Part shown: one piece after another, positions 1,853 through 61,645 of the stretch | How the letters are laid out: every line of letters starts with the position of its first letter | How positions within the stretch are numbered: position 1 is the first letter of the stretch | NCBI GenBank assembly: GCA_951406725.2 | Contig: OX597817.1 | Location: forward strand, 77,872,001-77,936,000 | Origin: Octopus vulgaris | Lineage: Eukaryota | Direction: 5' to 3' | Length of the DNA stretch: 64,000 bases | The notes under the pieces: generated by a model | Database searches by the model: none | What the model saw: the letters and a program-made list of their open reading frames with translations, nothing else | What the model was told of the DNA's origin: nothing | Program-made: the position numbers and the translations under genes

Positions 1853-2068
1853 TTGTTAATCCAAACCAGAAAGCACAAAAAAACACACCAACGCGAGGAC
1901 ATGGAACAAATATAGTATTATTGGATGCTCAGGAAAGGAGGAAAGAAGGAGGGTTTAACGTTTCGAGCGGAGCTCTTTGTCGGAAACATAGGAGAAGGAA
2001 AGATCCAGAGAAGGGAAGACAGAGGGAAAAAAAAATCGCCAACGGTACACACGAGGTCACATTTTGAT
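1853..2068 (-). mobile_element. About 210-bp hammerhead-bearing repeat (PLE pLTR-like / retrozyme-like), family H1
   Basis: Homologous to 25130-25337, 61454-61645, 50180-50362, 15972-16140 and 21300-21492; flanked by (TA)n; degenerate hammerhead at 1953-1987 (minus: GTTT CCGACAA A GAGC TCC GCTC GAAA CG TT AAAC). Confidence 0.7.
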
Positions 2069-2137
2069 ATATATATATATATGTATGTATATATATATAT
2101 ATATATATATATATATATATATATATATATATATATA

Positions 2138-2646
2138 TATTGTTATATTTCGGAATGGTCATATTGCCAGTTTAGCCAATAAAAACACACGCACTATATA
2201 TTTGGTGTTATTTTGCTTCAGTGATATTTATTTTTTACATTAATCTTAATCTTATTTCGGCCAAAGTTCTTTCGTCACACTCCTGTGACCGCATCAGTGG
2301 TCCTTTGTTTTCTTCTCACTTACTTGTGTCTCTCCTTACTAACCGTCAGCCATTTTGTATTTCTATTGTATGTCTTCATTTGCGCATGCTTATATCTCTA
2401 TGTGCGTCTATGTTTATTTAGTGTGTGGGGGGATGTCTGTAATATTTGTATCTTCTGGTTATATACATTCTTGTAATTTGTATTTTGTTTTTGTTGTTGT
2501 TGCTTTTGTTCTAATTTTGTTCATGTGTTTACATCCACCCATTATTATCATTACATATGCTTGTATGTATGTATAACAACAATATTAGTAATAATAATAA
2601 TAAATCTAATCTATAAAAAAAAAAAAAAAAAAAAAAAGAATATACA
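2138..2646 (-). mobile_element. Penelope-like terminal repeat (pLTR-like), left inverted copy
   Basis: 2138-2611 is the exact reverse complement of 3974-4447 (identical ORF translations on opposite strands, coordinate sum 6585); similarity continues through the polyA/polyT to about 2646/3943; lies downstream of the GIY-YIG ORF on the minus strand. Confidence 0.75.
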
Positions 2647-2816
2647 TATACATATATATATATATATACATACACATACATATACATATATATATATACA
2701 TATATACACACATATATACACATATACATATATATACACATATACATACACATAGATATTCATTTCTATTTCTTTAATTACCTGTGTATTTATTATGTTT
2801 GCAGGATCCACTATTG

Positions 2817-3167
2817 TCATATGTTGTGGTGTGCGCTATTGCTCCATTCTAGTTTTCTATTCAGGCTAGGTTTATTTTCTATTATATGTGTAGCTTCTGT
2901 AATTTGTCTAATTGTTGCATCTGTTCTATGTGTGGACAATATCTTAATCTCTATGTTATTGATTGATCCCCCGTGTTCTTGTTCGGCGTGTTGGTACAGA
3001 ATCGATGAGCTTTTACCTTCCTTGAGTTGTCTCCAATGTTCATTCACCCGCTCACCAATGCTTCTTGCAGTTTCCCCTACGTATGTTACTGTCTTGTTAC
3101 TGCATCGTCCCTCTATACATCTTATACTATAGACCACATTTCTGGCTTTACAGTTCGTTTGTATACA
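2817..3167 (-). CDS. GIY-YIG endonuclease domain, C-terminal fragment of a Penelope-like retroelement ORF (5'-truncated)
   Basis: NVVYSIRC...[18 protein letters not shown]...QHAEQEH...[25 protein letters not shown] motif pair, catalytic R/E/N and CCHH-like residues typical of PLE endonucleases; no stop or frameshift. The first 8 aa of the listed ORF (3168-3191) come from an unrelated inverted SINE segment. Confidence 0.9.
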
Positions 3168-3494
3168 AACACAGAACATACAAAATGCCACTAAGCATTT
3201 TGTCTGGCATGCTAACGATTCTGCCAGCTTGCCACCTTGTGATATACTCTTTTACGCTTTTACTTGTTTCAGTCATTTGACTGTGGCCATGCTGGAGCAC
3301 CGCCTTTAGTCAAGCAAATCGACCCCAAGGCTTATTCTTTGTAAGCCTAGCACTTATTCTATTGGTCTCTTTTGCCGAACTGCTAAGTTACGAGGACATA
3401 ATTATGGGTATGTAAACACACCAGCATCGGTTGTCAAGCGATGTTGGGGGGACAAACACAGACACACAAACAGATACACACACATACATACATA
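3168..3494 (-). repeat. Inverted duplication of local flank 4573-4899 (SINE A tail plus SINE B head junction)
   Basis: Reverse complement of 4573-4899 (coordinate sum 8067), including a private insertion (ataattatgggtat) and the SINE A/SINE B junction. Confidence 0.92.
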
Positions 3495-3942
3495 CAAGTG
3501 AATGGGTCGCATATGGAGGCACAGCCTATTGCTGCTGTTGTAATCAGCTGGAGCACTGTATAACTGACGAGTGTTTGTTTTCTTTAACAGCCTGTTGAAG
3601 TGAGTTCAGAACATACAAGAAGCAAATCGTATGTTAGGCCGACATCATGTCTTGAGCGGGGAGGGATCAGTTGGTTTGATGCATCTTCTCAACAAATTAG
3701 GGTCATTGGAAAGCAAGACAGGCACCTGAGCACTGCTGTATTGTCTGATTACAGCAGCAGATCAAAATGAAAGTGGAGAGCGGTTAAAAGACGAAGAGAG
3801 AGACAAAGGAAATATCGTCACACGTATTTGGTAAGAACTTGATTACGTTTCAACATTATAAGAACGAGCAACCCCAATAATGTTCCTAAATTAACAAGGA
3901 ACATCACGAGGAATCAAATCTATTGGTTGTTAAATGGAGGTT

Positions 3943-4502
3943 TGTATATTCTTTTTTTTTTTTTTTTTTTCTCGATTAGATTTATTATTATTATTACTAA
4001 TATTGTTGTTATACATACATACAAGCATATGTAATGATAATAATGGGTGGATGTAAACACATGAACAAAATTAGAACAAAAGCAACAACAACAAAAACAA
4101 AATACAAATTACAAGAATGTATATAACCAGAAGATACAAATATTACAGACATCCCCCCACACACTAAATAAACATAGACGCACATAGAGATATAAGCATG
4201 CGCAAATGAAGACATACAATAGAAATACAAAATGGCTGACGGTTAGTAAGGAGAGACACAAGTAAGTGAGAAGAAAACAAAGGACCACTGATGCGGTCAC
4301 AGGAGTGTGACGAAAGAACTTTGGCCGAAATAAGATTAAGATTAATGTAAAAAATAAATATCACTGAAGCAAAATAACACCAAATATATAGTGCGTGTGT
4401 TTTTATTGGCTAAACTGGCAATATGACCATTCCGAAATATAACAATATCTGTTTCAACACACGACTTCACATAAAAAATCTTGCGCAACAAATATTTAAA
4501 CG
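3943..4502 (+). mobile_element. Penelope-like terminal repeat (pLTR-like), right copy with terminal extension
   Basis: Inverted copy of 2138-2646 plus a 55-bp extension (aatatctgtttcaacacacgacttcac...) also seen at 6520-6576; ends in (TA)n; hammerhead-like motif at 4282-4326. Confidence 0.75.
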
Positions 4503-4572
4503 TATATATATATATATATGTATATATATATATATATATATATATATATATATATATATATATATATATATA

Positions 4573-59325: not shown

Positions 59326-59339
59326 ATATATATATATAT

Positions 59340-59560
59340 ATCACAATCAAGGAACGGCCATAATAGGCCATTCACCCACTAGAAATAACAGCCAAAAGCT
59401 TCAACCGCAAAATAACATCAATTCCGTAAAGAGAAATTTCAGGGTAAATGTTTTTTAATTTTCTCCTGGTTTACGGAATTGATGTTATTTTGCGGTTGAA
59501 GCTTTTGGCTGTTATTTCTAGTGGGTGAATGGCCTATTATGGCCGTTCCTTGATTGTGAT
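59340..59560. repeat. Perfect 91-bp inverted repeat with 39-bp spacer
   Basis: 59340-59430 is the exact reverse complement of 59470-59560. Confidence 0.95.
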
Positions 59561-60039
59561 GTTGAACTTAAAAATGGTCTATGACTATTTAATTTTTTTC
59601 CCACTAGGCCGCTGGTGGCAAAAAAATTCTACAAAATTTTTTGCCACCCTATATTGATTTATTATATATATATATATATATATATACTTTTGATATATAT
59701 TTAAAATAATATAAATTAATTAATTTTATGTATTGGCTTATGTTTTTCATTATTTGATTTGCCTAATAGTGGTTTTATCTCTAATTTAATATAATATAAT
59801 ATAATATATTTTACTATAAAATTGGATTTAATCCTAAATCTGATGTTTCCCTGTAAGTTTGGATTATATATATATATATATATATATATATATATACTTG
59901 TTTCAGTCATTTGACTATGGCCATGCTGGCATACTTCCTTGGTAGAAAAATATGGAATGTTTCAGGAATTTGTGAGTCATCTTTGCATGCCATACATACA
60001 TACATACATACATACATACATACATACATACATATGTAT

Positions 60040-60437
60040 ATATTGGGTCATCCCATAAATAATGTGGATTTTTCAGTTGCATGAACTAAATGTCGGAGTT
60101 GGGGCAGGATAAACTACCTGCATAAACTTGCTATAAAAACAGGTAGTAATTTTACCTTGTACTTATTCTTAGTGCAAGTTTTGAAGAGTGCAGTTTGATT
60201 TTAACAGTTATTTTTCCAAAGCTATAATGGAAGTGACAAAAGAGCATATTCAGCATATTTTGCTTTATGAGTTCAGTGAAGGCAACAATGCAACAGAAAG
60301 TGAAAAGAATATTAATGCAGTATATGGGGATTGGACAATAAGTGTAGGCCAGAGGCAATGGTGGTTCCAGAAATTCTGAGCTGGAAATAACAGCCTAGAA
60401 GATGAGCCTTGTCCTGGAAGATCTGTGGAGCTCAACC
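60040..60437 (+). mobile_element. mariner transposon 5' fragment (TIR plus transposase N-terminal HTH, pseudogenised)
   Basis: TA-TTGGGTCATCCCATAAATAATG terminus; from 60227 MEVTKEHIQHILLYEFSEGNNATESEKNINAVYGDWTISVGQRQWWFQKF*AGNNSLEDEPCPGRS, resembling the mariner WFxxFRxGxxxLEDxPRxGRP motif. Confidence 0.88.
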
Positions 60438-60734
60438 TGAAAAAAATTTTAACTGGGCCCCACCTGCAACATCATGCACTGTTTATTTTGATATGAGATC
60501 ACCATGTTATGCACATGTGGTTGTGATGCACCGCATGCCTGGTGTTTCATTACCAGAGAAGTAGTCATGATTGGTATATTGGGCTTTGTACATTTGTACC
60601 CTAGTGTCACTTTGATGGCATGTATTGCTCTCTCACTCAATAATAATAATAATGATAATAATAATAATAATAATAATAATAATAATAATAATAATAATAA
60701 TAATAATAATAATAATAATAATAATAATATTAAT

Positions 60735-61145
60735 AACAAGAGCACTCAGTGAGCACAAACCTCTACCAAGGCAACACCAACATCCTCTCAACGATTAGCT
60801 GGAGGTGACTTTTAAAATGAGAATACCTGAACTAAACTTGACTGCTCTTACAAATGAGGATACTAAAAATGAACCCAAGCACTCTCAAACATTAAGTAAA
60901 GAAACCAGAAAAATAATCCGGAATCCTTGTCCAGTACTGGATCAATCTCAAAATCTAATCAGTTTGTGCCAGTCACAAGGCCAAACATCTCTGAAAATTT
61001 CATCTGAATCCATCCAGCGGTTCTTGAGATATCATGTCCATGGACAAACAAATAAACACAACGGAAAACAAGAGCACTCAGAGAGCACAAACCTCTGCCA
61101 AGGCAACACCAACATCCTCTCAACGATTAGCTGCTAAGGCAGAAA
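60735..61145 (-). mobile_element. HINE/Helentron-like element with duplicated terminus
   Basis: Homolog of 38530-38915; 60735-60801 repeated at 61067-61133. Confidence 0.68.
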
Positions 61146-61453
61146 TAATAATATTAATGAGGTAATGATGTCTTAATTCATATATTTTAATGCTCCAAAA
61201 ACTATACAGCTATTTCATGTTGCACAGAATATATTTGGTACAATATAAAATTTCTGTGCATTTTCCTTCTTTTATAACGTTTACTGCAATTCACCATATG
61301 CGAAAAAAAAATTTTGTGGAACCTTTACACTATATACATACATACAAATAATACAAATCTATCTATCTATCTATCTATCTATCTATCTATCTATCTATCT
61401 ATATCTATCTATCTATGTATGTATATATAAATATATATTTATATATATATATA

Positions 61454-61645
61454 GTTAATCCAAACATGAAAACATAAAGAGAAACCACCACAATGCAAGG
61501 ACGTGGAACAAGTATAGTGTTATTGGACACTCAGGAAAGGAAAGAAAGAAGGAGGATTTAACTTTTCGAGCGGAGCTCTTCGTCAGAAACATAAAAAAAG
61601 GAAAAGTCCAAGGAAGGGAAGACGGAGAAAGAAAATCGCCAATGA
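61454..61645 (-). mobile_element. Hammerhead-bearing repeat H1; motif at 61556-61590
   Basis: GTTT-CTGACGA-A-GAGC-TCC-GCTC-GAAA-AG-TT-AAAT; (TA)n on both sides. Confidence 0.75.

What the first reader, a model, noticed from the sequence alone, without database searches (positions are those of the whole stretch)
1853..61645. Dispersed ~200-bp family (H1) carrying minimal hammerhead ribozymes, mostly in (TA)n: candidate cephalopod retrozyme / non-autonomous PLE system
Seen: six related copies (1853-2068, 15972-16140, 21300-21492, 25130-25337, 50180-50362, 61454-61645), with no recognisable coding capacity, five next to (TA)n. Five show the layout stemI-CUGANGA-A-stemII-GAAA-CG-UH-stemI', some with core substitutions. 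Stem I covaries (GTTT/AAAC vs CTTT/AAAG) and stem II keeps GAGY/GCTC while its loop varies (TCC, GTAG, ATT). Established: loop-less palindromic stem III (ACGU) type-I hammerheads are the hallmark of Penelope-like element pLTRs and metazoan non-LTR retrozymes, and are thought to cleave as dimers. Inference: a high-copy, self-cleaving, microsatellite-targeting short retroelement family mobilised in trans by PLE RT/GIY-YIG. I cannot tell whether this family is already catalogued.
Basis: partly seen in the sequence, partly recalled or inferred. Interest (0 to 1): 0.85.

Follow-up and report, generated by a model that had tools for sequence, protein, structure and literature searches.

The report
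Stub ends of Penelope-like jumping genes
The six repeats are the hammerhead-bearing end pieces of several related protein-coding Penelope-like jumping genes that sit in TA repeats; most copies start at one preferred point, so they are likely made as ready-cut 200-base stubs, and one sub-family may be copying itself.

Summary
The six copies are real (plus a seventh 3' fragment) but belong to at least five subfamilies, 45-85% alike. Each matches the 3' end (pseudo-LTR) of a Penelope-like element with RT, Neptune-type Cys linker and C-terminal GIY-YIG; a young 6.2-kb member has an intact 949-aa frame and this repeat at both ends. About 90,000 stubs lie in the genome, most with their 3' end at (TA)n. 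They are not tandem retrozymes (6 head-to-tail junctions against 2,547 copies of one subfamily). What remains of interest: 5' ends pile up about 100 nt before the cut site, likely a transcription start, and one variant (1,506 copies) is almost never long (28 keep parental upstream sequence, against 189 of 932 for its sister), a candidate self-propagating non-autonomous stub. Known kind, new members.

The parts
1853..2068 (-). c1: solo pLTR of subfamily A1 (T variant); starts at the preferred 5' point directly after (TA)n
   Evidence: 94% identical over 212 nt to the end of an ORF-linked element (L428/L210)
1953..1987 (-). c1 minimal hammerhead layout, core CCGACAA (U4C plus G8A), predicted cut after 1957
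15972..16140 (-). c2: 3' end of subfamily B, 5' end 65 nt before the cut site
16062..16097 (-). c2 minimal hammerhead, core CUGAAGA; the only fully canonical one in the window, an outlier in B (28 of 30 have U at position 6)
21300..21496 (-). c3: old solo pLTR of subfamily D, hammerhead 21397-21431 decayed (CCAACAA, stem II broken)
24997..25073 (+). seventh copy: 3'-most 77 nt only, starts downstream of the hammerhead, between (TA)n tracts
   Evidence: 98% to the A2 pLTR
25100..25337 (+). c4: 5'-truncated 3' end of subfamily A, whose long copies carry a CA-rich 3' UTR and RT/GIY-YIG frame
25208..25242 (+). c4 minimal hammerhead layout, core CCGACGA (U4C), predicted cut after 25238
25263..25268 (+). 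conserved CTGAGC box, complementary to the 3' strand of stem II; also at 1927-1932, 16043-16048, 50241-50246 and, altered, 61529-61534 (all -)
50170..50366 (-). c5: solo pLTR of subfamily C, hammerhead 50264-50298 with core CUGAAGA, stem III palindrome broken
61454..61645 (-). c6: A-group stub between (TA)n tracts, hammerhead 61556-61590 with core CUGACGA, stem III palindrome broken
15914..15971 (.). (TA)n at the 3' end of c2; likewise 21253-21293 (c3), 25342-25384 (c4) and 2067-2140 (5' side of c1)

Best explanation
H1 is the set of terminal repeats (pLTRs) of several related Neptune-type Penelope-like retrotransposons, left as about 90,000 short stubs whose 3' ends sit at (TA)n, and the stubs are likely made by the element's own RT/GIY-YIG protein from uncleaved element RNA. 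Shown: the repeat is the 3' end of RT + Cys-linker + GIY-YIG elements and is repeated upstream of the frame in full-length copies; 3' ends are fixed at the unit junction, 93-110 nt past the hammerhead cut site; 5' ends pile up about 100-110 nt before the cut site in B, C, D and A1, while subfamily A (c4) is raggedly truncated. Inferred: the endonuclease nicks (TA)n; the RT starts inside the RNA at the UAUA(UA) of the unit junction; the transcript starts in the upstream pLTR near the pile-up (initiator-like TCATTTC in C, TCACTTC in D), so priming at the upstream junction copies only the ~210-nt repeat, and priming at the downstream junction gives long or randomly truncated copies. The hammerhead would be slow, dimer- or protein-dependent, and not needed for insertion.
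For: ORF linkage: subfamily A, 6 of 7 loci read ORF, CA-rich UTR, H1 end on one strand; young and A2 elements, 12 of 13 loci that I chose for long frames have H1 downstream and 11 of 13 also upstream, with a tandem array of period about 6.19 kb; B, 23 of 30 GIY-YIG loci (query included) are followed by a B end; C, 4 of 29 have frame remnants within 1.5 kb and their UTRs align with each other; D, 1 of 30 (read), and 15 of 30 loci found with that frame carry a same-strand H1-type end against 3 opposite-strand hits in 30 loci of another PLE family; c1 is 94% identical to the end of an ORF-linked copy (354 nt between the two fetched stretches not seen). Intact 949-aa frame; 849 homologues, the listed ones with RT and PLE-associated Pfam domains. 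(TA)3 at the 3' end: A 30/30, B 28/30, C 22/25, D 15/25 against 12-20% in flank windows. 20 hits and no PLE frame in 600 kb taken at round coordinates. 5' pile-up: 16 of 16 incidental A1 copies; B 15 of 30 at -112 to -98 with a query that did not force it. Upstream pLTRs of 245-2,025 nt span the cut site. Precedent: internal RT start, AT-rich targets, hammerhead dispensable in vitro (PMC11167929, passages); internal promoter and start inside the upstream pLTR (PMC2377424, passages).
Against: No transcription start was measured; the pile-up could be an RT stop or a microhomology site. For C and D the query began at the pile-up, so those counts (19/25, 22/25) are partly forced. A1's parent reads GTCTTTC there and A has no sharp pile-up (13 of 30 longer than 500 nt upstream). 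Young copies have upstream pLTRs of 493-2,025 nt, which a start at -105 does not explain without read-through from tandem copies. The G variant of A1 is far shorter than its sister (28/1,506 against 189/932), which by-product copying from a common parent does not predict. Clade call rests on motifs compared by eye, not on a tree.
Confidence: 0.8

Rival explanations
1. Part of H1 (the G variant of A1, not itself among the six window copies as far as shown; c1 is the T variant) is a self-propagating non-autonomous element: a solo pLTR that keeps the internal promoter, is transcribed into its (TA)n flank and is copied in trans by the PLE protein. Compatible with the main reading for the other subfamilies.
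For: 28 of 1,506 G copies keep 7 parental upstream letters against 189 of 932 T copies (Fisher p 5e-55); 86 of the first 100 listed TATA-flanked starts are G against 13 of the first 100 listed [C/G]TTTC starts; 6 head-to-tail junction matches at 5 loci, one read in full (L423). pLTR cis sequences sufficed for mobilisation in trans in a rotifer (PMC3846280, passages); non-autonomous PLEs are described in Chlamydomonas (PMC8557442, passages).
Against: 28 G copies do have the parental upstream letters, so a long G parent may exist and simply make more stubs; only one diagnostic position was tested; exact-match counts undercount diverged copies.
Confidence: 0.35
2. All stubs are ordinary 5' truncations of full-length RNA; the pile-up is an RT stop or a joining hot spot at an AT-rich motif.
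For: Subfamily A shows a continuous range of 5' ends from -106 to beyond -600; fragments starting downstream of the hammerhead occur (6 of 39 incidental copies); (TA)n targets favour joining at AT-rich motifs (inference).
Against: The pile-up is at a homologous point in four lineages with different local sequence, within about 10 nt; T and G variants with the same local motif differ tenfold.
Confidence: 0.25
3. H1 is a non-LTR retrozyme family: monomers cut from tandem transcripts by the hammerhead, circularised and reverse-transcribed.
For: Monomer size fits; rare tandem junctions exist; retrozymes are proposed to derive from pLTRs and can be mostly monomers (10.64898/2026.07.22.740005, part 1 of 5 and passages).
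Against: 6 junction matches against 2,547 copies; junction spacers differ; copies have fixed ends unrelated to the cut site rather than permuted ends; hammerheads are minimal with variant cores, not the canonical type I of retrozymes (PMC7229834, passages); coding parents exist.
Confidence: 0.04

Closest known systems
Minimal hammerheads in pLTRs of metazoan PLEs (Cervera and de la Pena 2014, PMC4209133; parts 1-2 of 4 read)
   Same: Short stem I, unpaired base before stem II, G10.1-C11.1, palindromic 15.2-16.2, many consensus families per genome, mostly single motifs that the authors ascribe to truncated PLEs.
   Different: Stem II is only 4 bp; lineage-wide cores U4C and A6U were not in the parts I read (they report U3-A8); a conserved downstream CTGAGC box and a fixed 5' start of the stubs are not mentioned there.
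Neptune-clade EN+ PLEs (Craig et al. 2021, PMC8557442; introduction, passages, supplement search and part 54)
   Same: RT, CX2-5CxxC linker, C-terminal GIY-YIG with CCHH, partial tandems forming pLTRs, microsatellite bias; RT3-4 and linker spacing resemble the Neptune rows by eye.
   Different: 3' UTR of 2.5-3.3 kb of degenerate (CA)n in the A group; unit 6.2 kb. The octopus entries I saw in that supplement are Naiad and Hydra families (2 places per term shown), which have other domain orders or linkers.
Poseidon of Anolis, PAc (Frangieh et al. 2024, PMC11167929; passages)
   Same: Internal RT start at the pLTR-ORF junction RNA, AT-rich targets, hammerhead cleavage dispensable and protein-assisted.
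   Different: Other clade; its hammerhead overlaps the start codon, here it lies about 420 nt before the ATG and 2.9 kb after the stop.
Metazoan non-LTR retrozymes (PMC7229834, passages; bioRxiv 10.64898/2026.07.22.740005, part 1 and passages)
   Same: Short, non-coding, type I hammerhead, PLE-related.
   Different: They are tandem repeats with mostly canonical hammerheads and circular RNA; H1 is dispersed, monomeric and has coding parents.
Penelope-like fraction of the Octopus vulgaris repeat annotation (PMC13282606; part 1 of 3 and supplement rows)
   Same: 190 Penelope-like families, 6.83% of that genome, 336 recent insertions; if the host is an octopus, these families may be in that library.

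Membership tests
EN+ Penelope-like element (Neptune type) | Single frame with PLE-type RT and C-terminal GIY-YIG carrying CCHH | tested here: met
   949-aa frame with DKG, GxAMG, YIDD and LIYCxxCxxC..YVG..H..H; Pfam RVT_1 E 0.001 and GIY-YIG E 0.011, both under the curated cut-offs; homologues carry PF00078, PF26215, PF01541
EN+ Penelope-like element (Neptune type) | CX2-5CxxC linker between RT and EN | tested here: met
   CSRSRCNTC; 24 residues to the next Cys, as in Neptune rather than Nematis rows of Fig. S2 of PMC8557442 (by eye)
EN+ Penelope-like element (Neptune type) | Partial-tandem arrangement giving pLTRs of variable length | tested here: met
   direct repeats of 245-2,025 nt at 93-100% identity in 8 of 9 copies measured, tandem array on C10
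EN+ Penelope-like element (Neptune type) | Hammerhead motif in the pLTR | tested here: met
   present in both pLTRs of full-length copies
EN+ Penelope-like element (Neptune type) | Phylogenetic placement with reference Neptune RTs | not tested
   no reference sequences on hand in the tools; motif comparison only
EN+ Penelope-like element (Neptune type) | Retained intron near the 5' end (some PLEs) | tested here: inconclusive
   no GT..AG joint among 4 joints in contigs of 4 runs of uncertain kind
Minimal type I hammerhead | Core CUGANGA ... GAAA ... UH | tested here: inconclusive
   GAAA, U16.1, C3, G5, G8, A9 conserved; position 4 is C in young 11/11, A2 3/3, A 27/30, D 22/25; position 6 is U in B 28/30; canonical in C 21/25. 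U4C lowers activity in vitro but is tolerated in a viroid (PMC3088659, passage)
Minimal type I hammerhead | Bulged base before stem II, G10.1-C11.1, palindromic 15.2-16.2 | tested here: met
   majority state in all subfamilies, with CpG decay in old copies
Minimal type I hammerhead | Covarying stems | tested here: inconclusive
   one compensatory pair in one lineage; one mismatch each in D and the young lineage; stem II invariant
Minimal type I hammerhead | Self-cleavage as a dimer | not testable with these tools
   needs in vitro transcription
Non-LTR retrozyme | Tandem repeats with a hammerhead in each unit | tested here: not met
   6 junction matches against 2,547 A1 5' motifs; no tandem H1 unit in the window
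Non-LTR retrozyme | No coding parent with the same sequence | tested here: not met
   open only for the G variant of A1
Non-LTR retrozyme | Monomeric linear and circular RNAs | not testable with these tools
   only assembled contigs of runs not on record as RNA were served

The most novel reading that the evidence does not exclude
The PLE protein primes at the first unit junction of its own transcript and stamps out a defined ~210-nt promoter-plus-hammerhead cassette into (TA)n about 100,000 times; one variant of the cassette has escaped its parent and spreads as a Pol II SINE-like monomer, a visible first step from pLTR to retrozyme, while the active lineage keeps a damped U4C ribozyme that a downstream GAGC box can switch off.
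Probability: 0.3. Interest if true: 0.6.

Novelty: new member of a known kind. Interest (0 to 1): 0.3.

Why it matters
As filed, it is ordinary: minimal hammerheads in pLTRs and abundant stubs are described for many animals. Two things are useful. First, a young family (98-99.6% identical copies, intact 949-aa frame) with a strict (TA)n target is a ready substrate to test how Neptune-type elements prime and what the hammerhead is for, which is still open. Second, the fixed 5' end and the short-only variant offer a genomic test of internal priming and of the proposed origin of retrozymes from pLTRs.

Tried and rejected
Rfam scan of the window: the 150 rows shown of 445 held no hammerhead and were mostly microsatellite-driven miRNA matches; c4 alone and the 363-bp unit gave no hammerhead match. 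Folding: no strand beat shuffles and the hammerhead fold was rarely the minimum. Pfam GIY-YIG search found mainly another PLE family (781-aa frame, U3-A8 hammerhead) with no same-strand H1 end in 30 loci (part's output was cut): rejected as the parent. The 5' neighbour of a long copy proved to be a separate 363-bp repeat. The guess that A1 has a C-like upstream (33 matches) failed: 5 of 5 fetched were microsatellite or a tandem junction; the idea that A1 has no parent at all failed too. 5' ends at the cut site: 1 of 39 incidental copies within 5 nt, so no sign of cleavage products being copied. Box-versus-stem II switch: pairing probabilities are comparable (0.10-0.64 against 0.15-0.83) but covariation cannot be tested as stem II is invariant; left as a hypothesis. 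RNA: no RNA holder listed; contigs of 4 runs guessed to be RNA cover 28-30 of 30 bins but cannot show strand, starts or ends: not used. Luense et al. 2017 on dimeric PLE hammerheads was not held; I saw it only as cited in PMC6765202, and it may list these core variants. Dfam and Repbase could not be searched. The host species was not established by any search.
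Full report
OBSERVATION. A profile of the six copies finds them all at the stated places and a seventh 77-nt fragment at 24997-25073. c1, c4 and c6 are 79-85% identical; the other pairs are 45-71%. Searches of the own genome (2.8 Gb) with c4, c2, c5 and c3 gave 3,598, 1,980, 3,952 and 525 first-look candidates, of which 40 were scored each, and defined subfamilies A, B, C and D; c1 belongs to a further one, A1. 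Sixty 10-kb stretches taken at round coordinates held 20 hits of 20 bits or more, about 93,000 copies genome-wide (57,000-144,000), and no PLE frame; the first 40 stretches gave 19 hits at E<=0.001 and none when reversed.

THE HAMMERHEAD. The layout is readable in all six copies and is conserved between subfamilies more than its surroundings (24 of 32 against 32 of 121 columns). The core is mostly not canonical: CCGACGA in 11 of 11 young, 3 of 3 A2 and 27 of 30 A copies, C at position 4 in 22 of 25 D copies, U at position 6 in 28 of 30 B copies, CUGAAGA in 21 of 25 C copies. Covariation is one pair in one lineage; stem II does not vary. U4C is reported to lower activity strongly in vitro while a viroid tolerates it (PMC3088659, passage); A6U did not occur in that text. 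A CTGAGC box 20-25 nt past the cut site is conserved (6 of 8 columns) and can pair with the 3' strand of stem II with probability similar to stem II itself in several subfamilies; this is a hypothesis only.

WHAT THE COPIES ARE. All have a fixed 3' end at (TA)n (95 of 110 against 12-20% in flanks). Long A copies continue 5' as degenerate (CA)n; a motif in that body led to loci where it follows a GIY-YIG frame, and 6 of 7 such loci run frame, UTR, H1 end on one strand. That frame found 150 scored matches, many with open stretches over 800 aa. Of 13 loci that I chose among them for long frames, 12 have H1 downstream and 11 upstream as well; the young ones are 98-99.6% identical, 6.2 kb long, and one locus is a tandem of three. 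The intact protein has 949 aa with RT, CSRSRCNTC linker and C-terminal GIY-YIG and matches the Neptune rows of PMC8557442 by eye. B (23 of 30 loci), C (4 of 29) and D (1 of 30, then 15 of 30 same-strand ends behind related frames) are linked likewise, and c1 is 94% identical to the end of an ORF-linked copy. c6 was assigned to the A group by similarity only.

THE 5' ENDS. Against my first reading of plain truncation, incidental A1 copies start within about 10 nt of one point, after microsatellite: 16 of 16 (18 matches; one C-type and one chimeric copy dropped). Genome-wide there are 2,547 exact A1 5' motifs; 463 and 102 follow TATA directly in two spacings. The parental upstream letters remain in 189 of 932 T-variant and 28 of 1,506 G-variant copies; exact matching undercounts both. 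B piles up at -112 to -98 from the cut site (15 of 30), C at -106 to -97 (19 of 25) and D at -102 to -89 (22 of 25), the last two partly forced by the query; A is ragged. In C and D the point follows an initiator-like sequence (motif recalled; a TCACT Inr-like site in a rotifer pLTR is noted in PMC3846280). Head-to-tail junctions number 6.

MECHANISM. Shown: anatomy, linkage, fixed 3' end 93-110 nt past the cut site, upstream pLTRs that span the cut site, 5' pile-up. Inferred: GIY-YIG nicking of (TA)n, RT start at the UAUA junction inside the RNA, uncleaved template, transcription start in the upstream pLTR. The last two steps together give the ~210-nt stubs. Internal initiation on pLTR-ORF junction RNA and dispensable cleavage are shown for an anole Poseidon (PMC11167929, passages), an internal promoter for Drosophila Penelope (PMC2377424, passages). 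I put the identity of H1 as PLE pLTR stubs above 0.95, the start-site origin of the pile-up near 0.6, and a self-propagating G variant near 0.35.

COMPARISON AND NOVELTY. Cervera and de la Pena (PMC4209133, parts 1-2 of 4) describe thousands of single minimal hammerheads per animal genome, most ascribed to truncated PLEs. A repeat annotation of Octopus vulgaris lists 190 Penelope-like families (PMC13282606); I could not see its library, nor Dfam or Repbase, nor bioRxiv supplements. Seven literature searches listed no paper on octopus PLE hammerheads or on stubs with a fixed 5' start, but the library lacks most subscription papers, Luense et al. 2017 among them. Earlier notes of this scan on other genomes reached similar verdicts (unchecked, not support); none exist for this genome or sequence. 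Verdict: new members of a known kind, interest 0.3, with a testable residue in the 5' pile-up, the short-only variant and the U4C core of a young family.

Noticed in passing
window 2140-3251 (-): 5'-truncated PLE of another type: GIY-YIG remnant at 2820-3251 (Pfam E 0.00037), then a hammerhead-like motif near 2258-2303 (CTGATGC core, longer stem II), ending at the same (TA)n as c1's 5' side.
   Followed up: partly
L070 1381-2251, L081, L076, L077, L083 (and others): A 363-bp unit in partial head-to-tail tandems and inverted pairs in (TA)n, with a U3-A8 minimal hammerhead; no match in the window. A better retrozyme candidate than H1; no coding parent was looked for.
   Followed up: partly
L090, L095, L190 1245-3587: A second young PLE family with an intact 781-aa frame and its own U3-A8 hammerhead with a CAUG stem III.
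   Followed up: partly
L229-L231 (G000:C10 about 97.80-97.83 Mb); L239, L240: Three tandem copies of the young 6.2-kb element, over 99% identical; L239 and L240 have the uninterrupted frame, others an 883-884-aa open stretch without the first ATG in frame.
   Followed up: yes
window 2060-2062, 21489-21491, 25133-25135, 50362-50364: An ATG followed at once by TGA or TAA lies just inside the preferred 5' end in A, C and D; in B and the young lineage the ATG opens four codons before a stop. Possibly a minimal upstream frame or a promoter element.
   Followed up: no
L192-L198, L232-L241: The 2.5-3.3-kb 3' UTR of the A group is degenerate (CA)n; much of what looks like host microsatellite in this genome may be PLE body.
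   Followed up: partly
window 1577-1730 and 61668-61820, many others: Other abundant dispersed repeats, SINE-like, beside c1 and c6; 'SINE' is my recollection of such octopus repeats, not a call result.
   Followed up: no
L033 8588-9028: Subfamily A end joined to an inverted H1 copy, the inverted-pLTR arrangement known for PLEs.
   Followed up: no
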